A DNA stretch of 64,000 nucleotides from Candidatus Omnitrophota bacterium. GTDB lineage: Bacteria > Omnitrophota > Gorgyraeia > Gygaellales > Profunditerraquicolaceae. A program made the position numbers and the translations under genes. The notes under the pieces are model-generated. The model saw only the letters and a program-made list of their open reading frames with translations, did not search any database and had not been told where the DNA came from. The stretch is taken from NCBI GenBank assembly GCA_022710715.1, contig JAKLGJ010000001.1:362041-426040 (forward strand). The letters are read 5' to 3'. Below, in pieces: positions 9,190-52,045 of this stretch; within the stretch, counting starts at the first letter, position 1, and the number at the start of each line of letters is the position of its first letter.

Positions 9190-9192
9190 GCA

Positions 9193-10272
9193 ATGATTAT
9201 GAATAATCCTTTAATTAGCATTATAGTTCCGACCTACAACGAAGCTCAAAATATTAACGAGTTGTTGAATCGTGTCCACGCTGCTTTAAATGGGATTGAG
9301 CATGAAATCATCGTTGTCGATGATGATTCACCGGATAAAACCTGGGAGATAGCAGAGAACAGAAGTAAAGCTGATTCATGGGTGCGGGTTATCAGACGTA
9401 AAGATCGTGGTTTAAGCAAAGCGGTGGTAGCGGGCTTTAATGAAGCTAAAGGAGAATTGTTAGGGGTTATTGACGCGGATTTGCAGCATGATGAACGTAT
9501 TTTGCCGGAAATGATAAAGAAAATCGAAGTAGCGCCTATAGTAGTCGGCTCCCGGTATGTGGAAGGCGGCGGAGTAGGCGATTGGAAGCTCGATCGGAAG
9601 ATCAAAAGCTGGTTAGCCACTAAAGTGGCTGCATTGATCTTGAATGTTTCAGTTAACGACCCGATGGCCGGTTTCTTTATCGTTAAGAAAGATGTTTACC
9701 AGAGAGTAAAAGAAAAAGTTAATCCACAAGGGTTTAAAATCCTGCTGGAGATTCTTTATCACGCTAACGTTGCTGTTGCCGAAGTTCCTTATCAGTTCAG
9801 GACCCGTCTGGCAGGAGAGAGTAAACTGTCTTCCAAGGTAGTTATTGAGTATTTTAAGCAAGTAATCCGGTTAAGAAGCACTAATCCGGTACCGGAAGGG
9901 CTTATTAAATATTCTATAGTGGGCGGCTCTGGTGTACTGGTTGATATGTTAGCTTTCGGCATCAGTTCGCATTTCCTAAAGATTCCGGTCGCCTTCTCTG
10001 GGATCATATCAAGTCAAGTTGCTATCTTTACAAATTTTATTCTCAATGATGTTTGGACTTTTGAAAGCCAGCGAGAGCAACCTTTATACGTGCGGTTTGC
10101 TAAATATGAGGCTACTTGCTTTATTGGGATCATCATTAAGTTTTTTGTTATACTTCTCACCGTAAATATATTTAGATTTAATCCTTATTTAGCGAATGGG
10201 ATAGGAATCATTCTTGTGGTCTTTAGCAACTTTATTTTTAGCAAATTATGGGTATGGAAAACACAAAAATAA
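9193..10272 (+). CDS. GT2 polyprenyl-phosphate glycosyltransferase (DPM1/ArnC-like) fused to a GtrA-like membrane domain
   Basis: ISIIVPTYNEAQNI...VVDDDSPDKT GT2 signature and DAD motif. C-terminal four-TM GtrA-like segment (IKYSIVGGSGVLVDMLAFG...). Confidence 0.8.
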   Translation: MIMNNPLISIIVPTYNEAQNINELLNRVHAALNGIEHEIIVVDDDSPDKTWEIAENRSKADSWVRVIRRKDRGLSKAVVAGFNEAKGELLGVIDADLQHDERILPEMIKKIEVAPIVVGSRYVEGGGVGDWKLDRKIKSWLATKVAALILNVSVNDPMAGFFIVKKDVYQRVKEKVNPQGFKILLEILYHANVAVAEVPYQFRTRLAGESKLSSKVVIEYFKQVIRLRSTNPVPEGLIKYSIVGGSGVLVDMLAFGISSHFLKIPVAFSGIISSQVAIFTNFILNDVWTFESQREQPLYVRFAKYEATCFIGIIIKFFVILLTVNIFRFNPYLANGIGIILVVFSNFIFSKLWVWKTQK

Positions 10273-11795
10273 ATACTACACAACTAAAAAAACACCATTC
10301 CGCCTGGCTCCTGGCGGCGATTCTTTTGCTTGCTCTTGGCATTAGGCTTGGAACTATGAATAATCATGGTGTTTGGATTGATGAAACCTGGGTAGTCACT
10401 ACTCCCAACTTTCATCTTGATTCAAAAGATATATTCCCTAAGTTTTTTGAGTATCCGCAAGTAAAAGAGCTTGCCGAATCAAAACAAGCATTGTTGAAGA
10501 AAGTATATAATATTCATCCGGTGGTACAAATATGTTTTATGCTTATCTCCGATATGCATCCGCCGTTTTACTATATAGTTTCGTACTTTTGGACTCGTCA
10601 TTTTGGCGAATCGTTATTTGCAATACGTGCATTGCCTTTATTATTCGGTTTGCTTACCATTGTATGTACTTACCTTATAGCTAAATCGCTCTTTGGGAAG
10701 AAAGTTGCTTTAATCGCAGCTTTATTTCTGGCTGTCTCACCTATGCACGTGCATTTCTCCCAAATGGCCAGAAATTTTTCCCTGATGACGTTCTTAGTAA
10801 CATTCAGTTATCTTGTTTTGCTGACTAAGCTTTTCAAAAGATTCGAACTCAAGTATGCCATTCTTTATGGCATTAGTGGATTTCTCGCTTTGCTTACCCA
10901 CTATTACTCGGTATTTTTTATCTTTACGCAGATAATCATGATAATTTTATGGGAGATCAAGGGCAAGAAGCGCTTCTTAAGATGGTTCGTAATTTTTCTT
11001 CTGATTGCGCTATTTTATACTCCTTGGCTGCCGGCCGTATATATCCAGATGTTTTTACGTAATCCTACGACTCAAAGTCAGCTGACTTCCACCAACTTGA
11101 ACACTGTTTTATCACAAATGTATGCCGTAGGTTTTATACCCTCGGTTACAACTAAATTCTTTTCTGGCGCTGTGGTAAATTTTCTAAAGATAATAAATTT
11201 GGTTGTAATCGTTTTTTTAGTTTTCTGTGGGGGTAATAAACTTAAAGCTCATGATCGTATGGCTTTTCGCTGGATATTGGTATGGTGCGGTATGCCGATT
11301 TTTTTACTTTCATGTCTTTCGTTGTTGAAACCTCTCTATTCAATCAAAAGTTTATTGCCGATTTTACCTGCTTTTTTTATTCTCTATGCGTTCGTACTCG
11401 CAAGGCTAAAAAACAAAGTTTTACTTAGTTTTATCTTGGTTTGTTTGTCCAGTATTATGTTGATTTCCCAGCTTGTCTGGCCCACTTATCCCGGGATTGA
11501 ATCGACAGAAGATACGAGAGGGGCAGTTGCACAGTTAAAAAGTTCAATAAGCTCTGAAGATATCGTAGCGGTTCAGCCGGGATTTTACAGGGACGGTTTA
11601 TGGTATTATTTACCAAGAGATTGTATGCTTTTAGACGAAGATCAAACTATTTTAATCCCGAGAGATAAAAATATTTGGTTATTCCGTTTTTGGGATAGGA
11701 ATAAATCAATACCTGAGATTGAACATGCTAATCCTGATTCAACTTATAAGTTTTTCGGAGTTTCTGCCTATTTATGGAAAAAGAGTTCCTTATGA
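10248..11795 (+). CDS. GT-C fold glycosyltransferase (ArnT/PMT-like, GT39/GT83)
   Basis: Multi-TM protein with a PMT_2/ArnT-like N-terminal region (IDETW, HPPFYYIVSYFW). Overlaps the preceding GT2 gene. Confidence 0.7.
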   Translation: MGMENTKINTTQLKKHHSAWLLAAILLLALGIRLGTMNNHGVWIDETWVVTTPNFHLDSKDIFPKFFEYPQVKELAESKQALLKKVYNIHPVVQICFMLISDMHPPFYYIVSYFWTRHFGESLFAIRALPLLFGLLTIVCTYLIAKSLFGKKVALIAALFLAVSPMHVHFSQMARNFSLMTFLVTFSYLVLLTKLFKRFELKYAILYGISGFLALLTHYYSVFFIFTQIIMIILWEIKGKKRFLRWFVIFLLIALFYTPWLPAVYIQMFLRNPTTQSQLTSTNLNTVLSQMYAVGFIPSVTTKFFSGAVVNFLKIINLVVIVFLVFCGGNKLKAHDRMAFRWILVWCGMPIFLLSCLSLLKPLYSIKSLLPILPAFFILYAFVLARLKNKVLLSFILVCLSSIMLISQLVWPTYPGIESTEDTRGAVAQLKSSISSEDIVAVQPGFYRDGLWYYLPRDCMLLDEDQTILIPRDKNIWLFRFWDRNKSIPEIEHANPDSTYKFFGVSAYLWKKSSL

Positions 11796-13246
11796 CACTG
11801 AAAGATATACTCTCAAATAGCGCAAGGAAATATTCTGACAACCAGGCAGTGATTTATCAGAAAGAACGTCTTTCCTATGCCGAATTGGAATCGCTTTCCG
11901 ACTTTATGGCTTGCCAGTTACTGGATAGAGGAGTTAGAAAAGCGGATAGAGTAGGGTTACTCCTGGAGAATTCGCCTTTATACGTGATCGCATTTTTCTC
12001 TGTGCTTAAAGCCGGGGCAGTAGTAGTTCCGATCAACACTCAACTGGTAACCCGGGAATTGGAAAGTATCATTTCGGATTGCCAACCGTCGATGATCATT
12101 ACGGATGACAGCCATAAACAATCCCTGGATACTTTCAAGGATATATCGATTTTCTCGGTAAGTTCCATCCGCTATACGCCTGTCGCCAGCCTGCAGTCTA
12201 TTCCGGCTAAGGAATCCGATCCGGCAATGATCATTTATACTTCCGGGACTACCGGTAAGCCCAAAGGCGTGATGCTTTCCCATCGTAACTTGGTAGCCAA
12301 TGCCGAGTCTATTGTTGATTACTTAAAACTATCTTCATCCGATTCGATGATGGTTATTTTGCCTTTTTATTATTCCTACGGTAATTCATTGCTTACCACC
12401 CATATCATGGTCGGTGCGACGTTAGTCATAGATAACCGTTTTGTTTTCCCTAACGTTGTTCTGGAAACCATGGAAAAAGAGAAAGTAACCGGGTTTGCTG
12501 GCGTCCCGTCTCATTACGCCATACTTTTGCGCAAATCAGCTTTACGCAATTATAAACTAACCAGCTTGCGTTATGTGACTCAAGCCGGGGGTGGAATGCC
12601 GGCTTCGATGATCAAGGAATTTACCGAAGTTGTGCCGCATGCGCAGTTTTTTGTGATGTATGGACAGACTGAAGCCACTGCCCGGTTGACCTATCTTGCG
12701 CCGGAGCATCTACGATCAAAATTAGGATCTATCGGTAAAGCTATTCCGGGAGTTGAGCTGGATGTGTTGAATGAGCAGGGCCAGCCGGTTCAGAATGGTG
12801 AAGTAGGCGAGATTGTGGCTCGCGGTAATAATATCATGCTAGGGTATTGGAATGCTGCTGAAGAAACCGGGAAAGTTAAGAGAAAAGAAGGCCTCTGGAC
12901 CGGGGATATGGCCAAAGTCGATAGCGATGGTTTTATCTATCTTATCAGCCGCAAGAAAGAGATGATCAAAAGCGGCGCCAATCGCATCAGCCCGTTGGAG
13001 ATCGAGGATGTAGTAAGCCGTTTGCCTGGCGTAGTAGAATGCGCGGCTGTAGGCGTTCCGGATGAGATTTTGGGTGAATCGATCAAGCTTTGCGTGGTTA
13101 AAAATGGAGTTCCCTTAACCAATAACGATATTCTCCTGCATTGCAAACAGCATTTAGCTCCCTTTAAGATGCCTAAAGAAGTGGCATTTGTGGCGTCTTT
13201 ACCCAAGACCAGTACAGGTAAGATCAAACGAAGCGAGTTAAAATGA
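11792..13246 (+). CDS. AMP-dependent acyl-CoA/acyl-ACP ligase (exosortase-locus ligase-like)
   Basis: AMP-binding motif IIYTSGTTGKPKGVMLSHRN, YGQTE and a C-terminal lysine motif. ATGA overlap with the upstream stop favours start 11792 over 11774. Confidence 0.85.
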   Translation: MTLKDILSNSARKYSDNQAVIYQKERLSYAELESLSDFMACQLLDRGVRKADRVGLLLENSPLYVIAFFSVLKAGAVVVPINTQLVTRELESIISDCQPSMIITDDSHKQSLDTFKDISIFSVSSIRYTPVASLQSIPAKESDPAMIIYTSGTTGKPKGVMLSHRNLVANAESIVDYLKLSSSDSMMVILPFYYSYGNSLLTTHIMVGATLVIDNRFVFPNVVLETMEKEKVTGFAGVPSHYAILLRKSALRNYKLTSLRYVTQAGGGMPASMIKEFTEVVPHAQFFVMYGQTEATARLTYLAPEHLRSKLGSIGKAIPGVELDVLNEQGQPVQNGEVGEIVARGNNIMLGYWNAAEETGKVKRKEGLWTGDMAKVDSDGFIYLISRKKEMIKSGANRISPLEIEDVVSRLPGVVECAAVGVPDEILGESIKLCVVKNGVPLTNNDILLHCKQHLAPFKMPKEVAFVASLPKTSTGKIKRSELK

Positions 13247-14208
13247 GCTTCCACAAAGAGATATTGAGGATAGACTGCACGAAGGAAGCTGAAAGAATAT
13301 GTGAATTTATTCGTCAGCAGACTTTGCGCTTGAAGCGCGACGGCGCGGTGATCGGTTTAAGCGGCGGTATCGATTCTGCTTTGAGCGCGGCCTTGTGCGT
13401 TAAAGCCTTGGGCAAAGACAAAGTATTCGGCTTGATGCTTCCGGACAAAGAATCCAGCCCGCAAAGTGAAGAATTCGCGGTTAAACATGCCAAACAGCTG
13501 GGTATCAGAGCTGAAACGGTGAGTATTACGCCGGTTCTGGAAGCTTTCGGTACTTATGAGAAGCGCGATGCGGTCGCCAAGTCAATCTTTTCGGAATTTG
13601 ACAACACCTATAAACTCAAGATCACCTTACCGGCAGATCTGCTGAACAAAGACTCTTATAACTTTTTTACTTTAACTATTGTGGATGACAAAGGTAATAC
13701 CAAATCTTCCCGGTTAAACAACGCCCAAGCTAAAGGCATTATCGCTGCCACTTGCACCAAGCATCGCACCCGGATGATGACCCAGTATTACTACGCCGAG
13801 AAAATGAACTATTTTGTCTGCGGCACCACTAATAAAAGCGAAGCTTTGCAGGGTTTGTTTGTGAAATACGGCGATGGTGGGGTGGATATAGAGCCTATCG
13901 CGCATTTGTTCAAAGCACAGATATTCCAATTGAGCGAGTATATGGGCGTGATCAGCGAGATCCTGCAGCGCAAACCCTGCCCGGACACCTACAGCGCCCC
14001 GGTTACCGATGAAGAGTGGTATTTTCGCATGCCTTATGGCATACTTGACCTATTGCTTTATGCCTGGGGAAAAAAAGTTGATATCTCTGAAGTCTGCAAA
14101 GTTATGAATTTAACCCAAGATCAGGTGGACCGTGTATTTAAGGATTTTAGTAATAAATTCAATGCTACAAAACATCTAAACGAAATTCCCCCGACAGTAG
14201 GAGCTTAA
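13243..14208 (+). CDS. PP-loop ATP pyrophosphatase, NAD synthetase (NadE)-like
   Basis: SGGIDS PP-loop plus a NadE-like block CGTTNKSEALQGLFVKYGDGGVDIEPIAHLFKAQIFQLSEYMGV. Confidence 0.65.
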   Translation: MSFHKEILRIDCTKEAERICEFIRQQTLRLKRDGAVIGLSGGIDSALSAALCVKALGKDKVFGLMLPDKESSPQSEEFAVKHAKQLGIRAETVSITPVLEAFGTYEKRDAVAKSIFSEFDNTYKLKITLPADLLNKDSYNFFTLTIVDDKGNTKSSRLNNAQAKGIIAATCTKHRTRMMTQYYYAEKMNYFVCGTTNKSEALQGLFVKYGDGGVDIEPIAHLFKAQIFQLSEYMGVISEILQRKPCPDTYSAPVTDEEWYFRMPYGILDLLLYAWGKKVDISEVCKVMNLTQDQVDRVFKDFSNKFNATKHLNEIPPTVGA

Positions 14209-14210
14209 CT

Positions 14211-15206
14211 ATGAAAATCTGCACTAAATGTATTCTTCCCGAAACATTCCCGGGTATCCACTTTGATAAGGAAGGCGTTTGCAATTTCTGCAGAGATTTC
14301 AAAGGCGAAGAAGCTTTGGAGACCGAAAAAAAAGAATATCACGAGAAATTTCTTAAATTGATCGAAGAAATCAAGGGGAAGAGTGCTTACGACTGTACTT
14401 TAGCATATTCCGGCGGAAAAGATAGCACATATACACTCTATTTGTTGAAAGAAGTTTTTAATTTAAGACCGCTCACCATTACTTTTGATAACGGTTTTAT
14501 ATCCGATCAAGCATTTAAGAATATTCGAACCGTAACCGAGACTTTAGGTGTAGATAACATTGTTTTCAAGGCTGATTTCCAATTATTAAAGAAAATATTC
14601 ATTGCAGGGATAGAGAATACTATGTATTCGGCCAAAGCTCTTGAGAGAGCTAGCACTATTTGCACATCCTGTATTGGTTTTGTTAAGTTTACTGTATTAA
14701 AAATTGCTCTGGAAAAGCATATCCCGCTTATGGCCTGGGGGTGGTCGCCGGGGCAAGCACCTATCAGATCTTCAATAATGAAAGTTAATGCGGCTTTGTT
14801 TAAAACAACTCAAGAAATGTATCGTAAACCAATGTTTGAAGTTGCTGGTGAACAAGTTAATAGATATTTTTTGACTGATGAACAGTTTATGTCCATCAAT
14901 TTTCCTTATAATGTTAGCCCGTTAGCTTTCATGGATTATGATGAGGAAAAAATCAAAGAGAAAATTAAAGATTTTGGATGGGAGATCCCAGGTGGCTTAG
15001 ATGCAAATTCAACTAATTGTTTGCTAAATACCTTTGCTAATCATGTCCATATCAAGAAACACAATTTCCATCCCTATGCCTTTGAGATTGCTGGGATGGT
15101 GCGGTCCGGAATAATTGAAAGGCAAGAAGGATTGAATAAGTTTGGAGAAGAAGCAAGTAGTATTAAAAATCTGGAATACATCAAAAAGAAACTAAGGATT
15201 TTTTGA
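14211..15206 (+). CDS. N-acetyl sugar amidotransferase (WbuX/PseA-like PP-loop enzyme)
   Basis: N-terminal zinc ribbon CTKC...CNFC followed by the SGGKDS PP-loop. Confidence 0.75.
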   Translation: MKICTKCILPETFPGIHFDKEGVCNFCRDFKGEEALETEKKEYHEKFLKLIEEIKGKSAYDCTLAYSGGKDSTYTLYLLKEVFNLRPLTITFDNGFISDQAFKNIRTVTETLGVDNIVFKADFQLLKKIFIAGIENTMYSAKALERASTICTSCIGFVKFTVLKIALEKHIPLMAWGWSPGQAPIRSSIMKVNAALFKTTQEMYRKPMFEVAGEQVNRYFLTDEQFMSINFPYNVSPLAFMDYDEEKIKEKIKDFGWEIPGGLDANSTNCLLNTFANHVHIKKHNFHPYAFEIAGMVRSGIIERQEGLNKFGEEASSIKNLEYIKKKLRIF

Positions 15207-15252: not shown

Positions 15253-16065
15253 GTGAGAAATTCTATTAAGATGGTGAGTTTATTATTGATTGTTTTTTCT
15301 TCTTATGGGGGAGCCATGAAAGAGGATGACGCAACATGTGCAGGGATGGAGCAGATATTGACTGAGGTGTCGAAGAAGAAAATTTTCTTTGGTCATCAGT
15401 CGGTTGGCAATAATATTATAGGTGGGATAAGTCGAATCCTAGAAAGTTGTTCTGATAATCGGTTGGTGATTAAAGAGACGTCTGATGCTAACGATCTTAA
15501 TCTTCCAATTTTCGCTCATGCAAGACTTGGCCGTAATCTTGACCCCAAGCTTAAATGTGATGAATTTAAAAGAGTTTTGGATAGCGGGATTGGCAATCAA
15601 GTCGATGTGGCGATGTTAAAATTTTGTTATGCGGATATTGATGAAAATACAAACATTAAAGAGGTGTTCAAATACTACCGTGCAACCTTTTTATATTTGG
15701 AAAAAAAGTATCCCAGAGTTAGATTTATCCATTTAACTGTGCCGGTAACAGTTAGTCAGAATCCATTAGGATTAAAAGCCAGGATTAAAAGATTATTCAG
15801 AAAAGAACTTTATGGGGAGAAAGGAAACGTAAATAGAAATAAATTCAATGCTTTATTAACCAGTTTTTATAATAAAAATAACTTAATTTTCGATCTTGCG
15901 AAAATTGAGGCTACTAAGCCAGACGGGAGTTTGAACATCTTTAAGGCTGGTGACGGCTATAAATATTATGTACTTGTTGAAAGCTATTCCGATGATGGTG
16001 AACATCTGAATTATGTGGGTGGAAAAATTGTTGCTAAAGAATTATTGAAATTCATTACGGAGTAG
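15253..16065 (+). CDS. hypothetical secreted protein
   Basis: GTG start with an AAGAGG RBS, or ATG at 15271. Signal peptide MVSLLLIVFSSYGGA. No motif I recognise. Confidence 0.5.
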   Translation: MRNSIKMVSLLLIVFSSYGGAMKEDDATCAGMEQILTEVSKKKIFFGHQSVGNNIIGGISRILESCSDNRLVIKETSDANDLNLPIFAHARLGRNLDPKLKCDEFKRVLDSGIGNQVDVAMLKFCYADIDENTNIKEVFKYYRATFLYLEKKYPRVRFIHLTVPVTVSQNPLGLKARIKRLFRKELYGEKGNVNRNKFNALLTSFYNKNNLIFDLAKIEATKPDGSLNIFKAGDGYKYYVLVESYSDDGEHLNYVGGKIVAKELLKFITE

Positions 16066-16068
16066 AGA

Positions 16069-16887
16069 ATGGAAGAATTTAAATTTATTAATAATAGAGT
16101 GGGGAAGAAGCTGTATGGAGTTCTACATTTTCCTGCTAACCGAGAATCAAAAGAAGTTTTTGTTTTTTCTTCCCCGACTTTTGGCGAAAAAACTAAGTCT
16201 TATCGTGTCTTGGGCAACTTTGCCAGGCTTTTGGCTTTAAATGGTTATTGGGTATTTAGATTTGACTTTATGGGTGAGGGGGATAGTGAAGGAGACTTTA
16301 AAGAGGCTTCTATTAGAACCAGGATAGAAGATCTTTATTCGGTCATTGATTACCTTCAGAGTGAAATTAAACAACAAGATATTGTATACAATATCTTTGG
16401 TGCAAGGCTAGGAGCAACAATTGCTTCAGCATTCGCGCGCGAAAAATTAGTGAAAATCGGAAAATTAGTTATGTGGGATCCGGTTATTGATCCTGCTCAA
16501 TATTTATTGGAATTCTTGCGGGGAAATTTATCCAATCAATTGTTGATACATAGAAAAATTCTGCTGAATCGGGAAGATCTTGTTAATCAAATTAAATCAG
16601 GATTAGAGGTTAATGTTGATGGTTGGATTGTTGGAAAGGAGCTTTGGGAGCAGGCAGCGACAATGAATTTGTTTGTGGATTTAGAGAGAATCACTATCCC
16701 TTGTTTCATAAGCTTATCCTTGGGATTAGATAAAAAACTATTCGGCGCAGAAAAAAACGTTCATAGATCAAATTTTACTTTGTTTAATGCACCGCAAGAA
16801 TTTACATGGAGTGATTGGAAAAACTATAATCCTTCTCCTGAGATTATATTTGATAAAACACTTAATTGGATAAACGAGAATAAATGA
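16069..16887 (+). CDS. alpha/beta-hydrolase-fold protein (exosortase-associated hydrolase-like) with an atypical nucleophile elbow GARLG
   Basis: Size, secondary-structure pattern and position suggest an alpha/beta hydrolase. The nucleophile position holds Arg instead of Ser or Cys. Confidence 0.55.
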   Translation: MEEFKFINNRVGKKLYGVLHFPANRESKEVFVFSSPTFGEKTKSYRVLGNFARLLALNGYWVFRFDFMGEGDSEGDFKEASIRTRIEDLYSVIDYLQSEIKQQDIVYNIFGARLGATIASAFAREKLVKIGKLVMWDPVIDPAQYLLEFLRGNLSNQLLIHRKILLNREDLVNQIKSGLEVNVDGWIVGKELWEQAATMNLFVDLERITIPCFISLSLGLDKKLFGAEKNVHRSNFTLFNAPQEFTWSDWKNYNPSPEIIFDKTLNWINENK

Positions 16888-17834: not shown

Positions 17835-17844
17835 GGAGACAACT

Positions 17845-18840: not shown

Positions 18841-18856
18841 GCATTTCGAAAAACCA

Positions 18857-20371: not shown

Positions 20372-20486
20372 AGTAATTGAGCTTAGTGCAATACCAACAA
20401 GGAAAGTACAAGAAGTTGGCGTTTTTTTGATCGTCATAATAACCAATCTAAACTTGTGCAAATTCTTATTTGGTTGGAGGTGATTG

Positions 20487-22394: not shown

Positions 22395-22435
22395 AACATG
22401 CCTGTTCTTCTGCTTAAGGGAGTGCTATTTACAAT

Positions 22436-23599: not shown

Positions 23600-23601
23600 T
23601 T

Positions 23602-24849: not shown

Positions 24850-24850
24850 A

Positions 24851-26212: not shown

Positions 26213-26243
26213 TTATCAGAAGTGCTAAGATTATGCAAATAAT

Positions 26244-34325: not shown

Positions 34326-34326
34326 T

Positions 34327-36353: not shown

Positions 36354-36355
36354 GC

Positions 36356-37501: not shown

Positions 37502-37542
37502 CCTCGTGCAATGACTCGAGTATTTTTATTAAGAAGGGATAT

Positions 37543-38586: not shown

Positions 38587-38674
38587 CTCTTTTAAAAATA
38601 TTATAGGTCATTGAGTTTTTTTATATAATAGTGTTCAGCGTTGAAATGATTAATGCTGAAAGGAAGGAGACAGT

Positions 38675-40294: not shown

Positions 40295-40323
40295 TTGGCA
40301 AGATTGACTTTTTATGTTATAGT
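40295..40323 (+). promoter_or_regulatory. sigma70-like promoter of the short beta-helix gene
   Basis: TTGGCA, 17-nt spacer, TATAGT. Its downstream part is duplicated exactly at 42300-42328. Confidence 0.5.
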
Positions 40324-42299: not shown

Positions 42300-42328
42300 T
42301 TGACAAGATTAACTTTTTATGTTATAGT
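42300..42328 (+). promoter_or_regulatory. sigma70-like promoter of the giant beta-helix gene (duplicate)
   Basis: TTGACA, 17-nt spacer, TATAGT. Sequence is identical to 40310 onward. Confidence 0.5.
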
Positions 42329-45300: not shown

Positions 45301-48300
45301 TGATACCCAGTCAGCCAGCGATTCCGAAACCGTCACTATTACCGTAGCTAATGTCAACCGCGCGCCGGTATTGGCGGCGATCGGGGCAAAGAGCGGGTCG
45401 GAAAATACTTTATTGACCTTTACTTTGAGCGCTACGGATGCTGACAGCGATGCTTTGACCTATTCCTGCACTAATCTGCCTTCCGGATCGACTTTGAATG
45501 AATCGACCGGCGTGTTCAGCTGGACCCCGTCATATACCCAGGCAGCCACGTACGGGGCGGTGCATTTCGTGGTTTCCGACGGTAGTCTGACGGATACCGA
45601 GAATATCACCATTACCATCGCTAATACCAACCGCGCGCCGGTGCTTGATGCTATCGGTAATAAGTCGGTCAATGAAAACAGCGCTTTGAGTTTTGACCTT
45701 AATGCCACGGATGCGGATGATGATATCGTAGCTTACAGCGCTTCAGGTTTACCTGCCGGCGCGGTTTTCGACGCGGGGAACTTCAGCTGGACTCCGACGT
45801 ACTCCCAAGCAGGCACATACACCGTGACTTTTACCGCGGATGATCTTAGCGGCGGGACTGATTCCGAGACGATCACTATCACTGTGGGCAATCTGAACCG
45901 CGTGCCGGTGTTAGCGGCTATCGGGAATAAGGCCGTGGATGAGAATGCGCTGTTGAGTTTTGTGATCAGCGCTACTGATGCGGATAGCGATACCTTGACT
46001 TATTCCGCCACGAATTTGCCTTCGGGCGCTACTTTTACCGCCGGGACCAGGACTTTCGCCTGGACGCCGGGCGGCACGCAGGCCGGTAATTACAGTGTAT
46101 CTTTCAGCGTGACCGATCCTAACGGCGGCATCGATTCCGAGACGATCACTATTACCGTAGGCGATGTGAATGCTCCTCCGGTTCTGGCAGCTATCGGCGC
46201 TAAATCGGTGAATGAGAATGCGGCATTGAGCTTTGTGATCAGCGCTACTGATGGTGATGGCGACGCGTTGACCTATGCTGCCGCTAATCTGCCTTCCGGC
46301 GCTACTTTTACCGCCGGGACCAGGACTTTCGCCTGGACGCCGTCGTATACCCAGTCCGGTTCGTATACCGTGACTTTCAGCGTGGATGACGGTCTGGGCG
46401 GGACGGATTCCGAAGCGGTGGTGATTACTGTGGCTAATATGAATCGCGCGCCGGTGCTGGGAGCGGTGGGGAACAAAGCCGTGAATGAGAATGCGGCGTT
46501 GAGCTTTACGTTGAGCGCTACCGATGCGGACAGCGATACTTTAGTTTATTCTGCCACAGGTTTACCTGTCGGCGCTACTTTAGACAGCGCGACCGGGTCT
46601 TTTGCCTGGACGCCGACCTACGCGCAGTCGGGCAACTACAGCGTGACCTTCAGTGTCAGCGACGGCAACGGCGGGACGGATTCGGAAACCATCGGTATCG
46701 CGGTGAATAATGTCAACCGGGTGCCGGTGCTGGACGCGGTAGGCGCGAAATCGGTAGATGAAGGGGTAGCTTTGACTTTTACTTTGAACGCTGCTGACGC
46801 GGATAGCGATACTCTGACTTACGCGGCTGCTAATTTGCCTTCCGGCGCCACGTTTACCGCCGGCACGCGCACTTTCGCCTGGACGCCGGGCGGCACGCAA
46901 TCCGGAACTTACAATGTGACTTTCAGCGTGGATGACGGCAACGGCGGCACAGATTCGGAAACAATCGCGATTACCGTAAATAATGTCAATGTCGCGCCGG
47001 TGTTGAGCGCGATCGGCGCCAAGAGTGTGAATGAGAACGCGGCATTGAGTTTTGTGATCAGCGCTACGGATAGCGATGGAGACGCGATAACCTGCGCGGC
47101 TTCCAATCTACCCGCAGGCGCTACTTTTACCGCCGGGACCAGGACATTCGCCTGGACGCCGTCGTATACACAGTCCGGATCTTACACCGTGACTTTCAGC
47201 GTGGATGACGGTTTGGGCGGGACGGATTCCGAAGCGGTGGCGATTACGGTGGCTAATGTGAATCGCGTTCCGGTATTGGCGGCTGTGGGCAACAAAAACG
47301 TGGATGAAAACGTGGCGTTGAGTTTCAGCTTGAGCGCCACTGACGCAGATAGCGATACTTTGACATATTCCGGTGCCGGGATGCCTGTGGGCGCGACTTT
47401 TAATAGTGCCAACGGAGCGTTCAGCTGGACGCCGACCTATACCCAGGCCGGAAGCTATAGCGTAACTTTCAGCGCCAGCGACGGTAACGGCGGCGAGGAT
47501 TCCGAGGCTATCACTATTACTGTCGCGAATGTAAATCGCGTTCCGGTGTTGGCGGCAATCGGGGCAAAGAGCGTGGACGAGGGAACGGGTTTGAGCTTTA
47601 CGGTCAGCGCGACGGATGCGGATAACGATACCTTGACTTATACGGCTGCGGATGTGCCGGCTGGAGCGAGTTTCACTGCCGGAACCAGGACGTTCAGCTG
47701 GACTCCCAGTTGTCTGCAGTCGGGTGTGTATACGGTGACTTTCAGCGTGGATGACGGCAATGGCGGCACAGATTCCGAAGCGGTGGTTATCAGCGTGAAC
47801 AACGTGAATTGTCCGCCGGTGTTAGCGGCGATCGGCGCAAAGAGCGTTAACGAGAACGCGCAGTTGCAGTTTACGGTCAGCGCCACGGATCCGGAAGGCG
47901 ACAGCTTAACTTATTCCGCGGCGGGATTACCGGCGGGAGCGACTTTTGCGGGTTCGACATTTACCTGGACGCCGTCATATAGTCAGGCGGGTTCTGCTAC
48001 AGTGACGATTACTGCCGACGACGGTAACGGCGGCACGGATTCCGAAGCTGTGGTTATCAGCGTGGCGGATGTGAACCGCTCGCCGATCCTGGATCTGACC
48101 GGCAATAAGACGGTGAATGAGAACAGCGTTTTGAGTTTTGATATCAACGCGACTGATCCGGATGGCGACGTGGTGGCTTATAGCGCGACCGGTGTTCCTG
48201 CGGGCGCGGTATTCAGCGCGGGCAGCTTTAGCTGGACACCGTCATATACCCAGGCCGGTTCCTATACTGTGGTCTTTACCGCGGATGATCTCAATGGCGG

Positions 48301-51300
48301 GGAAGATTCGGAAACGATCACCATTACCGTGAATAATGTGAATCGCGCGCCGGTGCTGGCGGCGATCGGGAATAAGAGCGTGAATGAAGCCGCCGCTCTG
48401 GTTTTCAGCGTCAGCTCAACCGACGCAGACGGCCAGGCTTTGACTTTGTCCGCTGCGAACCTGCCTGCGGGCGCTACTTTTAACGCCGGGACCGGGGTGT
48501 TCAGCTGGACTCCTTCGTATTCCCAGGCCGGCGCATTTGCCGGGGTGCATTTCGAAGTTACCGACGGCGCGGCCACGGATAGCGAAGATATTACCATTAC
48601 GGTGAGCAATGTGAACCGGGAACCGGTTCTGGCCGCCATCGGCGCTAAAACGGTGAATGAAAACGTGCAATTGCAGTTTACCGGTTCCGCGACCGATGCG
48701 GACGGCGATGTTTTGACTTACAGCGCTACCGGATTGCCGGCAGGAGCGACCTTCGCGGGTTCGACTTTTACCTGGACGCCGACGTACGCGCAGTCCGGGA
48801 ATTTCACCGTGACCATCAGCGTGGCGGATACTAACGGCGGGACGGATTCCGAAGCGGTGACGATTTCCGTAGGTAACGTGAACCGGCCGCCGGTATTGGC
48901 TGCGGTGGGGAATAAGACTGTAGCCGAGAATGCGGCGTTAGGATTTACGGTCAACGCTACGGATCCGGACGGTGATGCAGTGACGCTATCTGCAGCGAAT
49001 CTGCCTTCCGGCGCGACGTTTAACGCTGCGACGGGCGCGTTCAGCTGGACTCCGGGTTACGCGCAAGCCGGGGCATACGCGACCGTGCAATTCGCAGCCA
49101 GTGATGGCTCTTTGAGTGATGCGGAAACCATTACGATCACTGTTACAAACACTGATACCACACCGGTTTTAGCGGCTATCGGAAACAAGACGGTGACGGA
49201 AAATGCGGCGCTGTCGTTTACGGTCAGCGCTGTTGACGTAGATGGCGACGCTTTGACGTATGCTGCGGCCGGATTGCCGGCCGGGGCTTCGTTCGCCAGC
49301 CAGGCATTTAACTGGACCCCGGGTTATGATCAGGCGGGTACCTATACGGTGACATTCTCGGTGGAGGATGGGGCGGGCAATAGCGATTCCGAAGCGGTTA
49401 CGATTACGGTGAGCAATGTTAACCGCGCGCCGGCGATGGCTGCGATCGGGAATAAGTCGGTGGTGGCTAAGTCCGAACTGACCTTTACCGTCAGCGCTAC
49501 TGATGCCGACGGCGACGCGGTGACTTATGCGGCTTCAGGTTTGTCGGCCGGTGCGACGTTTAATGCCGATTCCGGTGTGTTCAGCTGGATCCCGACCAAT
49601 GCCGACGCCGGGAATCATACCATTACTTTCAGCGCGACGGATGGTTTAGCTTCCGCTACCGAGGCGATCACCGTGGCAGTGGATGTCCTGGATGAAGAGC
49701 CGCCGTATCTGGATTCATTGAATCCGGAAGAGGGCGAAGTGCAGGTTTCGCGCGATTCCGACGTGTTCTTCTACCTGAAGGACGCGCTTAAGGGGGTCAA
49801 TAAGGATACGATCAATTTGAGCATCAAGCGCGAAGGCGACGCCGCGGCGACCAATGTTATCGTCAACGGGGTAAATCAGCTCTCATCGTATCCGAATAAC
49901 GTGATCCTCCAGAGCAGCAGCGGCAATTACGCGGTAAAGTACGATCCTCCGACCAGCCGCGACTATCGCTTTAAATACGAGCAGAAGATCACGGTGACAG
50001 TCAGCGGCCGCGACCTGGCCGGCAATCAGCTGGCGCCGTACACCTATGATTTCACTACCGCCATGCTGCTTAAGGGGCCGAACAAGAGGGTGAGTACCAC
50101 CACTACGACTACGGCTGAACCTGCTCCGGCGCCGGCAGGCGGCGTGGATGGCGCGGTGCAGCCGCCGGCTGCGACCCAGGTGGTGAATAAAGATAATTCC
50201 TGTCTGGTGATGAATAAATCCAGCAACAAAGTGTATATGGTCTGGCAGGACGACGCCGGACAGATCTGGTTCAATAAATCCGAGGACCGGGGGGTGACTT
50301 TTATCCAGGATACCCAGTTGACCGGCGCTTTGACCGGAACGAACCGCAATCCGCAGATGGCCGTGGATGATCCTGGGAACTTGTATGTGATCTGGGAGAA
50401 CGTGCAGACGGATAATTCGTCGGATCTGTATTTTGCCCGGCTGGATAATAACAGCGCTGCCTGGCAGATCGCGGTGATCCCGGCGGATATCGCGCTGGGC
50501 GTTGCGGCGAATCAGGCGCAGCCGTCTTTAGACGTAACTTCGAGCGGCACGGTGGTGATCGCCTGGGTCAACGGCGCTTCCGGTGTATATTATGCCCGGT
50601 CGACGGATCAGGGCGATAGTTTATGGAATCTGACTGCCGCGCAGACCAAACGGGTGGACGACGGGACTGCGGCGGCGTTTGCTTATCCGGAAATCAAGTT
50701 GAGCGTGAATAGTCAGAATAAGTATGTGGTCTGGAGCGCGGAGAAAAATAGCGAGCGCAATATTTATTTCAACGCTTTGAATAATCAGAATAATCGGGTT
50801 TACGCCCAGGATATTCAGATCAACGACGCGAATAGCGGCACTGCGGCGGACCGGCCGAGTCTGGCCATGCGGCCGGAAGTCGGCGGCGGCGGGCAGAAGG
50901 TGGGTATTTGCGCGGCCTGGGAAAATACCGGCGCTGACGGCGATACGGATATTTATTTCGACAAATCGGTTACCGGCGAGGTGTGGGGCGCGGATATTCA
51001 GGTCAACGAAGACGCGCAGACGCCGCAGGCGCAGAAAGAGCCGGCGCTGGCCATGGATGCCGACGGAAGTATTTTTGCGGTGTGGAGCGATTACCGCAAC
51101 GGCGAATGGGATATTTATTACGCCAATTGCCTGGATAACGGGTTGACTTTCAAGACGAATATTCTGGTGAATGCCGATTCCGGCACCGCGGTGCAGGATA
51201 AACCTTCCTTGTACTTGAGCGCGGACGGCAACCACGTGTGCATCTCCTGGACGGATTATCGTGACGGTAACGGAGCGATCTATTTTAACCGCAACTCCTA

Positions 51301-52045
51301 TGTGGATGAGGACACGACTGAAGAGTCTTTTGTGGATGATTCCGCCGGCGGGACGTTGACGGCCACCGGCAATGCGGATATTCAGCGGGCTTCGGTGGTG
51401 CTGCCGGGCAATGTGCTGGAAGTGCCTACGACCGTGACCATCACCAAAGTGGAATGCCCGCCGCCGGATGCCAACGAGTCGATCGCCGAGAAGGCGGTGG
51501 ATTTCGGGCCCAGCGGTACGGTATTCAAACAGCCGGTAACGATCAAAGTGCCGTATACCGCGGCGGATATGAGCGCGGTGGGGATCACCGATGCGCGGCG
51601 GCTGCGGCTGTTCTACTATAACCTGAAGACGTTGATGTGGGAAAAGCTGGCGGATTCGTATGTGGATACTACGAATCAGCTGATCTGCGCCGAGGTGCTG
51701 CATTTCTCGATCTACGGCGCGGGAGACGGCGGGCCGATCGCGCAGGCTGCGACTACGGGCAGCTCGGCTGCGCCTGCGGGCGGCGGTGGTGGCGGCGGCG
51801 GTGGCGGCGGGTGTTTCATCGCTACGGCTGCGTACGGTTCGTATGATGAGCCTAATGTGAAGATACTGCGGGTATTCAGAGATAAATGTTTGATGACCAA
51901 AGAGTGGGGCCGGAAGTTCGTGAAGTTCTATTATCGCCACAGCCCGGCGATCGCGGATTACATTGAGAGCCGCGAAGGGCTGAAGCTGATGGTGCGCTGG
52001 GCGCTCAAGCCGCTGGTGCTGGCTGCGCGCTCCGCCCTCCGCTAA
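42380..52045 (+). CDS. giant (3221 aa) secreted surface protein: beta-helix domain, He_PIG Ig, two FN3, 17 cadherin-like ~90-aa repeats, Ig-like, BNR/Asp-box propeller, and a Gly-run + Cys C-terminal module
   Basis: Single uninterrupted ORF with coding periodicity. N-terminal 143 aa identical to the 601-aa paralog. Asp-box motifs [17 protein letters not shown] and LDNGLTF. C-terminus G11[10 protein letters not shown]... Confidence 0.8.
45086..49700 (+). repeat. intragenic array of 17 tandem ~270-bp (~90-aa) cadherin-like / He_PIG-like Ig repeats
   Basis: Consensus [41 protein letters not shown]...[40 protein letters not shown]. Several units are about 90% identical at the nucleotide level. 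Confidence 0.85.
51812..52042 (+). other. conserved C-terminal module (giant paralog)
   Basis: [76 protein letters not shown], preceded by G11. Confidence 0.6.

What the first reader, a model, noticed from the sequence alone, without database searches (positions are those of the whole stretch)
9190..52045. Sharp base-composition mosaic: low-GC glycosylation island and a chimeric giant gene
Positions 1-9.1 kb (export, kinase and precursor genes) are roughly 55% GC. From about 9.2 to 43.8 kb (GT2/GT-C pair, acyl/amidotransferase set, about 12 glycosyltransferases, flippase, polymerase, and the beta-helix 5' domains) the sequence is strongly AT-rich, about 35-38% GC. The body of the giant gene from about 43.8 to 52.0 kb is about 58% GC. 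The RHS gene is about 48-50% GC. The giant ORF therefore switches composition abruptly within one reading frame, at the end of the duplicated beta-helix segment. This pattern is typical of horizontally exchanged serotype-determining polysaccharide cassettes and of domain-shuffled surface proteins.
Basis: seen in the sequence. Interest (0 to 1): 0.55.

Follow-up and report, generated by a model that had tools for sequence, protein, structure and literature searches.

The report
Low-GC swappable sugar-coat gene cassette
An uncultured Omnitrophota bacterium carries a surface-polysaccharide gene cluster whose strain-variable half is much more AT-rich than the rest of the genome, and this foreign-looking stretch ends inside a very large surface-protein gene; this is the familiar mark of swapped polysaccharide cassettes, with one uncommon detail.

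Summary
Segmentation puts the composition boundaries at 8,869, 43,732 and 52,247. GC is 0.515, 0.380, 0.566 and 0.467 in the four segments. About 28 kb of flanking and core DNA from the same contig averages 0.527.

The difference lies at synonymous sites. GC3 is 0.27-0.53 in the island and 0.56-0.75 in core and flanking genes.

The organism is a Candidatus Omnitrophota MAG. Four assemblies carry the head/body junction, three identically and one with 4 mismatches elsewhere.

The low-GC stretch is layered, not one cassette:
- 9,143-11,804 is a GT2-GtrA/GT-C pair, absent from a sister species.
- 11.8-15.2 kb is a module that keeps its gene order in relatives, with GC falling along it.
- About 15.2-40.3 kb is the variable Wzx/Wzy/glycosyltransferase region. 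Three related loci (two species) carry non-orthologous, equally GC-depressed genes after the same conserved module, and a fourth relative carries such genes directly after the epimerase.

The giant gene switches GC3 from 0.31 to 0.65 at codon 456. This is where similarity to the upstream 601-aa gene ends. The head's codon usage matches the island; the body's matches the core.

The head-plus-Ig architecture is ancestral, so this is a head replacement, not new domain shuffling.

Verdict: a new member of a known kind, of modest interest.

The parts
159..8532 (+). Conserved core of the exopolysaccharide locus: Poly_export, Wzz/GNVR, XrtA/PEP-CTERM-type ATPase, AAA_31 kinase-like ATPase, phosphomannomutase, hexapeptide transferase, UDP-glucose dehydrogenase, epimerase. 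GC 0.49-0.575; GC3 0.56-0.70.
   Evidence: Pfam and NCBIfam hits. Composition. Syntenic at 55-81% aa identity in Omnitrophota loci L009 and L026 (49-81% across L009, L010, L026, L030; the UDP-glucose dehydrogenase is only 34-37% in L072/L073), and the genes present on L025 are 90-98% identical.
8586..9189 (+). Two small genes at the left composition boundary: a 107-aa protein with a PEP-CTERM motif (8586-8909) and a 92-aa acyl carrier protein (8911-9189).
   Evidence: PEP_CTERM TIGR02595 scores 20.6 bits (cutoff 16). ACP-family hits reach E=8e-13 but fall below the curated cutoffs. Segmentation boundary at 8,869. Contigs from three other assemblies end at 8,784-8,788.
9143..11804 (+). Inserted two-gene module: a GT2-GtrA polyprenyl-phosphate glycosyltransferase (9193-10272) and a PMT_2 GT-C transferase (10248-11795). 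GC 0.37-0.40. It sits between the ACP stop codon and the ligase start codon.
   Evidence: Absent from the sister species L025, whose homology jumps from 9,143 to 11,804. Also absent between ACP and ligase in L072-L075. An 18-nt imperfect direct repeat lies at 9,154 and 11,766 (the pattern was defined after the fact).
11774..15206 (+). Acyl/amido-transfer module that keeps its gene order in relatives: AMP-forming acyl-CoA ligase, NadE-like ATP-pyrophosphatase, WbuX-like N-acetyl-sugar amidotransferase. GC falls along it: 0.455, 0.455, 0.361.
   Evidence: Orthologues at 67-84% aa identity in the same order in L072 and L073, with the same GC decline. Strain L002 diverges from 12,925 onward.
15253..40210 (+). 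Variable, low-GC region (GC 0.32-0.44; GC3 0.27-0.45). It holds two alpha/beta hydrolases, GT2, Wzx flippase (18857-20371), AsnB-like protein, Wzy_C polymerase/ligase (23602-24849), six GT4, two methyltransferases, XrtA-type amidotransferase (29344-31227), deacetylase, WecB, acyltransferase_3 and a 511-aa multi-pass membrane protein. Sub-blocks: 14.2-29.3 kb at 0.35, 29.3-37.5 kb at 0.416, 37.5-40.2 kb at 0.34.
   Evidence: Mostly no orthologues at the corresponding place in L026, L072, L073: most hits are only 26-39% identical, with one 57% match in L072. RSCU correlation with the core is -0.41 to -0.02.
40295..40323 (+). Sigma-70-like promoter match (TTGGCA-17-TATAGT, with TG) at the first base of repeat copy 1.
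   Evidence: a consensus match only; sequence read.
40375..42180 (+). 'Mini' surface protein, 601 aa: signal peptide, beta-helix head (aa 1-481), short linker, CFI-box-CTERM. Low GC throughout (0.416; GC3 0.317).
   Evidence: CFI_box_CTERM NF041770 scores 72.7 bits, cutoff 40. 88% aa identity to the giant's head. 16 of 120 head homologues have the same head + CFI-box layout.
42300..42328 (+). Second copy of the promoter-like site (TTGACA-17-TATAGT, with TG), at the start of repeat copy 2.
   Evidence: sequence read.
42380..43820 (+). Head of the giant gene (codons 1-481): signal peptide plus a right-handed beta-helix. GC 0.415; GC3 0.325. Paralogue of 40375-41815. The 460 nt from 42,303 are identical to copy 1.
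   Evidence: AlphaFold model pLDDT 93.8. Best structural matches are PL9 and PL6 lyases, lacto-N-biosidases and phage tailspikes, with TM-scores of only 0.33-0.54 among the top matches. RSCU correlation is 0.80 with island block A and -0.08 with the gene's own body.
43821..52045 (+). Body of the giant gene (codons 482-3221): He_PIG x18, Big_9, cadherin-like and PKD domains, fn3, Pur_ac_phosph_N, a BNR-like region, a ZU5-like domain and a C-terminal CFI-box-CTERM. GC 0.567; GC3 0.646, the level of the flanking housekeeping genes.
   Evidence: CFI_box_CTERM scores 103.5 bits. 273-nt tandem repeats. RSCU correlation with the core is 0.79.
52718..62026 (+). RHS-family protein, 3,102 aa: PKD, Kelch, RHS repeats, Rhs-associated core, NlpC/P60 tip. 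Intermediate GC of 0.475. The last ~250 codons drop to GC3 0.27-0.37.

Best explanation
The window comes from an uncultured Candidatus Omnitrophota genome whose local baseline is about 52-55% GC. It holds a Wzx/Wzy-type exopolysaccharide locus that resembles the XrtA/PEP-CTERM system.

The locus has two halves. The first is conserved and native in composition: export, chain-length control and sugar-precursor genes. The second is variable and 12-18 GC points lower.

The most likely history is repeated replacement of the variable half. Homologous recombination in the conserved flanks brought in DNA from an AT-rich pool of polysaccharide genes shared among related bacteria. This happened in several layers. 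One layer is a separately inserted GtrB-like/GT-C pair that would add a side-branch sugar.

The right-hand end of the foreign-looking DNA does not fall between genes. It falls inside a 3,221-aa surface protein that carries a C-terminal CFI-box-CTERM domain (a presumed anchoring or sorting signal), at the end of its N-terminal beta-helix head. That head has a polysaccharide-lyase/tailspike-like fold.

The giant protein therefore keeps its native Ig-repeat stalk and anchor. Its promoter-like site, signal peptide and head carry the island's codon usage. These parts are paralogous to the adjacent 601-aa head + anchor gene, and gene conversion has recently made their ends the same.

My functional inference is that the head acts on a polysaccharide and travels with the cassette that determines that polysaccharide.

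**Shown:** the composition, the boundaries, the paralogy, the conserved architecture, and the non-orthologous cassettes in relatives.

**Inferred:** horizontal origin, recombination as the mechanism, the head's activity, and its link to the polysaccharide type.
For: **Composition and codon usage**
- Segment boundaries and their significance.
- The effect is at synonymous sites. Head GC1/GC2/GC3 are 0.44/0.48/0.325; body values are 0.526/0.529/0.646.
- RSCU correlations: head vs island 0.80, body vs core 0.79, head vs body -0.08.
- Flanking housekeeping genes have GC3 of 0.61-0.75.

**Identity and reality of the sequence**
- A 100% identical protein is named Candidatus Omnitrophota by NCBI. The nearest genomes are Omnitrophota.
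- The head/body junction is carried by four assemblies. L006 and L007 are identical to the window across it, L008 differs by 4 mismatches elsewhere in the gene, and the JGI 1.62-Mb contig matches the window 100% in every stretch I retrieved on both sides of it.
- In sample ERZ761563 the core contig has coverage 21.1 and the island contig 21.0 (contig names).

**Replaceability of the cassette**
- L026, L072 and L073-75 show a conserved core followed by different, lower-GC genes.
- L025 lacks 9,143-11,804.
- L025 identity falls from 90-95% to 78-86% on approaching the island.
- L002 diverges from 12,925 onward.
- No mobility genes or tRNA are present.

**The head**
- 88% aa identity to the mini gene over 491 aa.
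- The first 128 codons and 77 upstream nt are identical. In the middle, pS is 0.78, and dN/dS is about 0.07 over codons 129-481. The two heads therefore diverged long ago, yet both remain at GC3 of about 0.3.
- The architecture is ancestral. P0006, P0165 and P0159 share 58-66% identity with the post-head region but only 33-46% with the heads. The best head homologues (P0001 at 61%, P0002 at 56%) have different tails.
- There is no GC3 jump at the head end in L062, L063 or L064.
- The beta-helix fold is predicted at pLDDT 93.8. Its top structural matches are polysaccharide lyases, glycosidases and tailspikes.
- In L064 the head protein also lies directly after a glycosyltransferase cassette.

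**Precedent**
- Salmonella O-antigen clusters show the same layered low GC and the same gradient in conserved genes next to the variable part (PMC3715488).
Against: - No donor lineage or near-identical foreign copy was found, so transfer is inferred from composition and non-orthology.
- Low GC of variable polysaccharide genes recurs in every relative examined. It could partly reflect a general AT bias of accessory, weakly expressed or membrane-protein genes, not the donor's composition.
- Only 83.5 kb of the genome could be read. The genome-wide spread of GC is unknown.
- The right-hand edge could not be compared across species, because no orthologue of this giant gene from a close relative was retrievable.
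- The discordant identities (head 33-46%, post-head 58-66%) could simply mean that heads evolve faster.
- Structural matches of the head are at fold level only (TM-scores of 0.33-0.54 among the top matches). Catalytic activity is not shown.
- Contig breaks at 8,788 could come from a repeated PEP-CTERM-coding sequence and not from strain variation.
Confidence: 0.72

Rival explanations
1. The low GC is maintained in place and was not imported. Variable polysaccharide genes (membrane proteins, weakly expressed, accessory) drift to or are selected for AT-rich codons in any host. On this view the mosaic says nothing about transfer, and the head is AT-rich for the same local reason.
For: Every related locus examined shows a drop of about 10-15 GC points in its variable part, whatever the host's own GC. 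GC declines gradually through the conserved-order genes (ligase, NadE-like, WbuX-like) in several species. The cited O-antigen paper notes that wzx and wzy having the lowest GC still needs explanation (PMC3715488).
Against: - Gene content beyond the WbuX-like gene is non-orthologous between species, so replacement did occur.
- A clean two-gene indel and a strain-level divergence onset are visible.
- The head is a soluble, secreted domain under strong purifying selection (dN/dS about 0.07). In relatives it shows no GC3 deficit against its own stalk.
- The shift inside one ORF spans fewer than 100 nt. Expression-linked codon bias cannot explain that within a single mRNA.
Confidence: 0.15
2. The giant gene's discontinuity is an assembly chimera. 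A low-GC head-bearing gene from one population was joined to a high-GC giant gene from another, through the conserved motif at the end of the head.
For: The junction lies in the most conserved motif of the family ([20 protein letters not shown]). All the data are short-read metagenome assemblies. Two public gene calls start the gene only at M442, just before the junction.
Against: - L006 and L007 are identical to the window across the junction, and L008 differs by 4 mismatches elsewhere in the gene.
- The JGI 1.62-Mb contig matches the window 100% in the stretches retrieved on both sides of the junction.
- The reading frame is continuous.
- The domain order across the junction is the same as in independent homologues.
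- Exact identity between the two local copies around the motif is under 30 nt, shorter than typical final k-mers.
- Island and core contigs have equal coverage in one sample.
Confidence: 0.04
3. The high-GC body is the unusual part. Frequent recombination among the 273-nt He_PIG repeats raised its GC by GC-biased gene conversion, or the body is itself foreign. The head would then be closer to the ancestral state.
For: In relatives L062 and L063, the Ig-repeat genes are 0.50-0.55 GC against flanks of 0.40-0.46. The body contains 16 or more tandem repeats.
Against: The body's GC3 (0.646) and codon usage match the core and flanking housekeeping genes (GC3 0.61-0.75; RSCU correlation 0.79). The non-repetitive parts of the body, including the C-terminal 600 aa, are just as GC-rich. 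The head matches the island, not the genome.
Confidence: 0.06

Closest known systems
O-antigen and capsule (Wzx/Wzy-dependent) gene clusters of Enterobacteriaceae, e.g. the Salmonella enterica rfb region
   Same: Conserved flanking and precursor genes sit at genome GC. The central GT/wzx/wzy genes are 15-20 points lower. There are several compositional layers, and a GC gradient in conserved genes next to the variable part. Different serotypes carry non-orthologous centres, exchanged by recombination in the flanks (PMC3715488; compare).
   Different: The host is an uncultured Omnitrophota bacterium. The conserved half resembles the XrtA/PEP-CTERM EPS system, not rfb or cps. Serotypes are unknown. 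The right-hand compositional edge lies inside a structural surface-protein gene, not in a flanking housekeeping gene.
XrtA/PEP-CTERM (EpsH-type) exopolysaccharide loci, as defined by the NCBIfam/TIGRFAM family set
   Same: The window has a pepcterm ATPase, acyl-CoA ligase, hydrolases 1 and 2, amidotransferase, deacetylase, O-ligase-like Wzy and GT4 'stp' families, together with a small PEP-CTERM protein.
   Different: Every system-specific match is below its curated cutoff. No exosortase gene lies in the window or in the 10-kb flanks that were read.
Gtr and ArnC/ArnT-type two-component glycan-modification modules (polyprenyl-phosphate GT2 plus GT-C)
   Same: A GT2 with a GtrA-like membrane domain is followed by a PMT_2 GT-C enzyme. 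The pair is present or absent as a unit between close relatives.
   Different: No phage or integrase context; a scan of viral contigs found nothing. The pair is inserted in-operon between the ACP and ligase genes. Its substrate is unknown.
Rhs and other polymorphic proteins with a composition break between a conserved core and an exchangeable end
   Same: There is an in-frame switch of GC at a domain boundary, caused by replacement of one end of a large gene. The neighbouring RHS gene shows the classic version at its toxin tip.
   Different: In the giant gene the exchanged part is the N-terminal 481 codons together with its promoter-like site and signal peptide. It is a beta-helix with a carbohydrate-enzyme fold, not a C-terminal toxin.
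Large and giant adhesin-like ORFs of Omnitrophota
   Same: The same phylum. Long extracellular Ig-like repeat proteins have been proposed to mediate adhesion or degradation of surface polysaccharide (PMC10066038).
   Different: At 9.7 kb this gene is below the >20 kb class described there. It also has well-annotated domains and a CFI-box-CTERM.

Membership tests
Variable (serotype-type) region of a Wzx/Wzy-dependent polysaccharide locus | Wzx flippase, Wzy polymerase and several glycosyltransferases clustered with export and chain-length genes | tested here: met
   Polysacc_synt/MatE at 18857-20371, Wzy_C at 23602-24849, 9 GTs, Poly_export and Wzz/GNVR.
Variable (serotype-type) region of a Wzx/Wzy-dependent polysaccharide locus | Conserved flanks with non-orthologous central genes in related genomes | tested here: met
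   Left flank: L026, L072 and L073-75 keep the core but carry different downstream genes. The right flank could not be compared.
Variable (serotype-type) region of a Wzx/Wzy-dependent polysaccharide locus | Atypical (lower) GC and codon usage relative to the genome | tested here: met
   Met against 28 kb of local background only. A genome-wide test was not possible.
Variable (serotype-type) region of a Wzx/Wzy-dependent polysaccharide locus | Different polysaccharide structures or serotypes among strains | not testable with these tools
   Uncultured organism; no chemistry or serology exists.
XrtA/PEP-CTERM exopolysaccharide system | Exosortase XrtA (EpsH) gene in or near the locus | tested here: not met
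   No exosortase family hit among the ORFs of 150 aa or more that were scanned in the window. None among the precomputed Pfam labels of called genes in the flanks.
XrtA/PEP-CTERM exopolysaccharide system | System-specific accessory families scoring above NCBIfam curated cutoffs | tested here: not met
   TIGR03015 scores 311.7 (cutoff 324.5). TIGR03098 scores 405.9 (cutoff 592). TIGR03100/03101 score 105/84 (cutoffs 168/203). TIGR03108 scores 627 (cutoff 817). TIGR03006 scores 51 (cutoff 276). It resembles the system but cannot be filed as a member.
XrtA/PEP-CTERM exopolysaccharide system | PEP-CTERM proteins encoded nearby | tested here: met
   The 107-aa ORF at 8586-8909 scores 20.6 bits on TIGR02595 (cutoff 16). 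PEP-CTERM genes also lie near the equivalent locus in L062 and L063.
CFI-box-CTERM domain proteins (NF041770) | C-terminal CFI-box domain scoring above the curated cutoff | tested here: met
   Mini gene 72.7 bits, giant gene 103.5 bits, cutoff 40.
Right-handed beta-helix polysaccharide lyases and hydrolases (PL9/PL6/tailspike-like) | Parallel beta-helix fold | tested here: met
   Model pLDDT 93.8, strand ladder over residues 60-360. Top Foldseek hits are 1ru4, 1dbg, 5gqc and 7o78 at probability 1.0.
Right-handed beta-helix polysaccharide lyases and hydrolases (PL9/PL6/tailspike-like) | Sequence membership in a characterised PL or GH family, and its catalytic residues | tested here: inconclusive
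   No PDB sequence hit at E<=1. Pfam Beta_helix at E=0.02 only, plus a faint precomputed PF22842. Invariant E176, R200, R205 and D237 in the family alignment are retained in both copies, but they were not mapped onto any known active site.
Classical genomic island (integrase-mediated) | tRNA or integrase at an edge, flanking direct repeats, mobility genes | tested here: not met
   No tRNA, no Rfam hit, and no integrase or transposase domain among the ORFs of 150 aa or more that were scanned. The only repeat is the 18-nt imperfect one around the small GT2/GT-C insertion.

The most novel reading that the evidence does not exclude
The exchangeable unit is not only the sugar-synthesis genes. It also includes the glycan-active 'head' of a giant surface protein presumed to be held by its C-terminal CFI-box domain. 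Recombination at the conserved motif that closes the beta-helix swaps promoter, signal peptide and head together with the polysaccharide cassette, while the native 2,700-aa stalk and anchor stay in place. The adjacent head + anchor 'mini' gene serves as a gene-conversion partner. If so, polysaccharide type and the specificity of a long-reach and a short-reach polysaccharide-processing or binding head would be inherited as one module in Omnitrophota.
Probability: 0.25. Interest if true: 0.55.

Novelty: new member of a known kind. Interest (0 to 1): 0.33.

Why it matters
- It extends the well-known rule that polysaccharide loci have a conserved half and a low-GC replaceable half to Omnitrophota. 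This is an uncultured phylum of very small, possibly host-dependent cells, where surface glycans and large surface proteins are thought to mediate contact with other cells.
- It has a practical consequence. The composition switch makes gene callers truncate the giant gene: it is called as 2,780 aa in two public assemblies, losing its signal peptide and head.
- The conserved core gives an anchor for typing the variable cassettes in metagenomes.
- The head/stalk breakpoint, if general, would be a tidy example of a functional module boundary that coincides with a recombination boundary.

Tried and rejected
- **tRNA, Rfam and mobility genes at the island edges:** none found. I rejected an integrase-type island.
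- **Phage origin of the GT2/GT-C pair:** a viral-contig scan with the PMT_2 protein found nothing. That scan only detects close relatives.
- **Sequence search of the head against PDB:** no hit. The fold had to be predicted instead.
- **Giant-gene orthologues from the sister species:** the protein search returned nothing above 67% identity and no hit longer than about 1,150 aa, so the right boundary could not be compared.
- **Context of the closest head homologue with a long contig (P0002):** gene list only, no DNA.
- **L064 as a possible donor-like locus:** its cassette proteins are only 25-48% identical to the island's. Rejected as a donor.
- **A simple recent tandem duplication of the head:** rejected, because synonymous sites are saturated in the middle.
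- **An amino-acid-composition explanation of the GC shift:** rejected, because GC1 and GC2 change little while GC3 doubles.
- **Contig ends at 8,784-8,788 as proof of strain variation:** kept only as a hint. A repeated PEP-CTERM-coding sequence could also break assemblies there.
- **Searches used up:** the genome contigs and metagenome-contig scans, the protein homologue searches and the contig look-ups are exhausted. I could not walk further along the genome.

Full report

Yes. A 1-kb profile and per-gene composition show four blocks. Likelihood segmentation puts the boundaries at 8,869, 43,732 and 52,247. Block GC is 0.515, 0.380, 0.566 and 0.467. The first split has LLR 567, against a maximum of 61.5 in 200 shuffles of 100-nt blocks.

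Its percentages are a little off: the left block is 51%, not 55%, and the low block ranges from 32 to 47% per kilobase.

The difference is carried by synonymous sites. GC3 is 0.56-0.70 in the eight left-hand genes and 0.27-0.53 in the low block. It is 0.646 in the body of the giant gene and 0.45 in the RHS gene.

Inside the giant ORF the GC3 change point is codon 456 (nt 43,748), going from 0.31 to 0.65. LLR is 182, against a permutation maximum of 19.

**2. Whose DNA is it, and is the sequence trustworthy?**

The exact proteins occur on a 1.62-Mb JGI contig, a 953-kb NCBI MAG contig, a 190-kb ENA contig and smaller contigs. L006 and L007 are 100% identical to the window over 30,375-52,180, which includes the head/body junction. 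L008 differs by 4 mismatches between 41,267 and 56,291, none at the junction. The JGI 1.62-Mb contig matches the window 100% in every stretch retrieved, on both sides of the junction.

NCBI names a 100% identical protein as coming from a Candidatus Omnitrophota bacterium. The nearest genomes in the species collection are Omnitrophota MAGs, with epimerase identities of 77% and 68%.

In sample ERZ761563, the contig with the core has coverage 21.1 and the contig with the island and giant gene has 21.0 (contig names). I therefore treat the mosaic as a property of one genome.

**3. The local baseline.**

I recovered 9.8 kb upstream and 9.7 kb downstream of the window. The upstream stretch holds a sigma-70 factor, PPDK and other housekeeping genes. 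The downstream stretch holds type-II-secretion-like genes and an 1,842-aa gene. They are 0.521 and 0.543 GC, with gene GC3 of 0.61-0.75.

The giant gene's body is therefore at baseline, and the left core sits at the low end of baseline. The 35-kb block is the outlier.

**4. What the genes are.**

- **159-8,532:** Poly_export, Wzz/GNVR, an ATPase close to the XrtA/PEP-CTERM ATPase family (311.7 bits, cutoff 324.5), an AAA_31 ATPase, phosphomannomutase, a hexapeptide transferase, UDP-glucose dehydrogenase and an epimerase.
- **8,586-9,189:** a small PEP-CTERM protein and an acyl carrier protein.
- **9,193-11,795:** a GT2-GtrA enzyme and a PMT_2 GT-C enzyme.
- **11,774-15,206:** an AMP-forming ligase, a NadE-like enzyme and a WbuX-like amidotransferase.
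- **15,253-40,210:** two alpha/beta hydrolases, GT2, Wzx, an AsnB-like protein, Wzy_C, six GT4, two methyltransferases, an XrtA-type amidotransferase, a deacetylase, WecB, an acyltransferase and a 511-aa multi-pass membrane protein with no family.

I count nine clear glycosyltransferases. All matches to XrtA-system families fall below the curated cutoffs, and no exosortase was found. The locus resembles that system but cannot be filed in it.

**5. Is the low-GC stretch replaceable?**

Comparative data say yes, but in layers.

- **(a) L026.** This is a relative with a 77% identical epimerase. It keeps the core in order at 0.44-0.47 GC. It then continues with glycosyltransferases only 26-39% identical to any in the window, at 0.28-0.31 GC.
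- **(b) L072 and L073-L075.** These are two more species. They keep the order core, ACP, ligase (67%), NadE-like (82-84%), WbuX-like (74-77%). After that they carry mostly different genes (one 57% match in L072), with GC3 of 0.27-0.46. GC declines through the last conserved genes exactly as it does in the window.
- **(c) L025.** This is a sister species at 87% nt identity. It aligns up to 9,143 and resumes at 11,804. It therefore lacks exactly the GT2-GtrA/PMT_2 pair. An 18-nt imperfect direct repeat sits at both edges, though I defined the pattern after seeing it.
- **(d) Identity gradient.** Identity to L025 falls from 90-95% at 4.3-7.2 kb to 78-86% from 7.8 kb onward.
- **(e) L002.** This near-identical strain has one mismatch in 12,924 nt, then 22 mismatches in the next 330 nt. 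Its contig then ends.
- **(f) Contig ends.** Contigs from three assemblies end at 8,784-8,788. This may reflect strain branching or a repeat.

There is no tRNA, integrase or transposase. The pattern matches what is described for Salmonella O-antigen clusters: several GC layers, the lowest GC in the GT/wzx/wzy genes, and a gradient in conserved genes next to the variable part (PMC3715488).

**6. The giant gene.**

The 601-aa gene at 40,375-42,180 and the first 481 codons of the giant gene are paralogues. They are 88% identical at the protein level, with an offset of 2,005 nt.

The repeat begins at a promoter-like site: 40,295-40,323 in copy 1 and 42,300-42,328 in copy 2. The identity profile is a mosaic:

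- about 460 nt are essentially identical (2 mismatches in the first 50-nt block), covering 77 nt upstream plus codons 1-128;
- identity then decays to about 60-70%;
- it rises again to 90-94% in the last 120 nt.

In the middle, synonymous sites are saturated (pS 0.78). Over codons 129-481, dN/dS is about 0.07. The two heads are therefore old, functional paralogues with recent conversion tracts at both ends.

Both proteins end in a CFI-box-CTERM domain (72.7 and 103.5 bits, cutoff 40). Those two domains are only 42% identical.

Codon usage splits the giant gene cleanly. The head correlates with island genes (r = 0.80) and not with its own body (r = -0.08). The body correlates with the core (r = 0.79).

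**7. Is it a new domain combination?**

No. Homologues P0006, P0165 and P0159 have the same order: head, He_PIG, Pur_ac_phosph_N, fn3. They are 58-66% identical to the 423 residues after the junction but only 33-46% identical to the heads.

The best head homologues (P0001 at 61%, P0002 at 56%) carry other tails. Sixteen of 120 head homologues have the mini-gene layout of head + CFI-box.

In the relatives whose DNA I could read (L062, L063, L064), GC3 does not change at the end of the head. The discontinuity is therefore specific to this genome.

The simplest reading is that a resident head-bearing giant gene had its 5' end replaced by island-type sequence. The replaced part covers the promoter-like site, signal peptide and head. 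The crossover lies in the nearly invariant closing motif [20 protein letters not shown].

The two heads diverged to synonymous saturation yet both remain at GC3 of about 0.3. That divergence most likely happened in a low-GC background before arrival. This last step is inference.

**8. What the head may do.**

An AlphaFold model built from a 45-sequence alignment is confident (pLDDT 93.8, pTM 0.92). It shows a right-handed parallel beta-helix.

Foldseek's best PDB matches are pectate lyase Pel9A, chondroitinase B and other PL6 lyases, lacto-N-biosidases, rhamnogalacturonan lyase, GH87 glucanase, phage tailspike depolymerases and the AlgE4 epimerase. Probability is about 1.0, but TM-scores among the top matches are only 0.33-0.54. 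There is no sequence-level match to any solved structure.

The head is thus probably a polysaccharide-binding or polysaccharide-cleaving module. In L064 a homologous head protein also lies directly after a glycosyltransferase cassette.

I infer that the head is matched to the polysaccharide the cassette makes. That would explain why the foreign-looking DNA ends at the head/stalk boundary. The mini protein would present the head at the cell surface, and the giant protein would present it at the tip of a stalk of about 2,700 residues. None of this is shown.

**9. Rivals.**

- **Composition maintained in place.** This is weakened by the non-orthologous gene content, the clean indel, the sub-100-nt switch within one mRNA, and the absence of the effect in relatives' heads.
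- **Assembly chimera.** This is weakened by three retrieved assemblies with the same join (two identical, one with 4 mismatches elsewhere), a fourth contig matching on both sides, equal coverage, a continuous frame, and a domain order shared with independent homologues.
- **GC-biased conversion raising the body.** This is unnecessary, because the body matches the housekeeping baseline, including its non-repetitive parts.

**10. Verdict.**

The polysaccharide mosaic is a textbook phenomenon, seen here in a new phylum. The in-gene boundary at a head/stalk junction, together with a conversion-linked mini paralogue, is an uncommon and testable detail, but not a new kind of system.

Noticed in passing
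window 61268-62026 (C-terminal ~250 codons of the RHS gene 52718-62026): A third in-frame composition break. GC3 falls from about 0.5 to 0.27-0.37 at the Rhs-associated core / NlpC-P60 tip, which is the classic Rhs core/tip pattern. No plausible immunity ORF follows in 62027-62367; the next gene is a cold-shock protein at 62368-62568.
   Followed up: partly
window 13243-14208: The NadE-like protein has 70-84% identical homologues in MAGs named as Atribacteria, Deltaproteobacteria, Actinomycetota, Acidobacteriota and even Nanoarchaeota. That is unusually high cross-phylum identity for a gene embedded in a polysaccharide locus.
   Followed up: no
window 42380-43703; loci L006 and L007: Public gene calls in two assemblies start the giant gene at Met442 (2,780 aa instead of 3,221). 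This drops the signal peptide and head. It is probably a gene-caller artefact of the codon-usage switch.
   Followed up: partly
window 38675-40210: A 511-aa multi-pass membrane protein with no Pfam or NCBIfam family lies directly upstream of the head genes. A 511-aa gene without a family also follows tandem head genes on the P0002 contig. It could be a partner of the head or CFI-box proteins, for example a sorting or polymerase-like enzyme.
   Followed up: no
window 8784-8788: Contigs from three other assemblies (GCA_035453765.1, ERZ27257455, JGI 3300025715) all end here, inside the small PEP-CTERM ORF and just before its sorting motif. The cause is either strain branching at the island edge or a repeated PEP-CTERM-coding sequence.
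   Followed up: partly
window 12925-13259; locus L002: A near-identical strain in ERZ27257456 has 1 mismatch in the first 12,924 nt, then 22 mismatches in 330 nt at the 3' end of the ligase gene. Its contig then stops. This looks like a recombination breakpoint within the population.
   Followed up: partly
window 9154-9171 and 11766-11783: An 18-nt imperfect direct repeat (14 of 18 positions identical) sits at both edges of the GT2-GtrA/PMT_2 insertion. The right copy looks like a duplicate of the 3' end of the ACP gene. The pattern was defined after seeing it, so its chance estimate is not a fair test.
   Followed up: partly
window 45140-49610: At least 16 head-to-tail repeats with a 267-273 nt period (He_PIG/Big_9 units), 60-77% identical to each other, make up much of the giant gene's stalk.
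   Followed up: no
locus L065 1141-4173 (protein P0006): In this homologue, GC3 rises from about 0.3 to about 0.55 at around residue 800, further downstream than in the window. This may be another in-gene composition junction in the same protein family.
   Followed up: no
loci L062, L063 and L064; downstream flank L059: In several Omnitrophota, head-bearing Ig-repeat genes lie next to type-II-secretion or pilus-like genes, PEP-CTERM proteins and a sensor kinase with a sigma-54 regulator pair. In this genome, T2SS-like genes lie 2-10 kb beyond the window's right end.
   Followed up: no
window 50621-52060 (minus strand): A 479-aa antisense ORF lies inside the GC-rich 3' end of the giant gene. 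It is most likely a by-product of high GC, not a gene.
   Followed up: no
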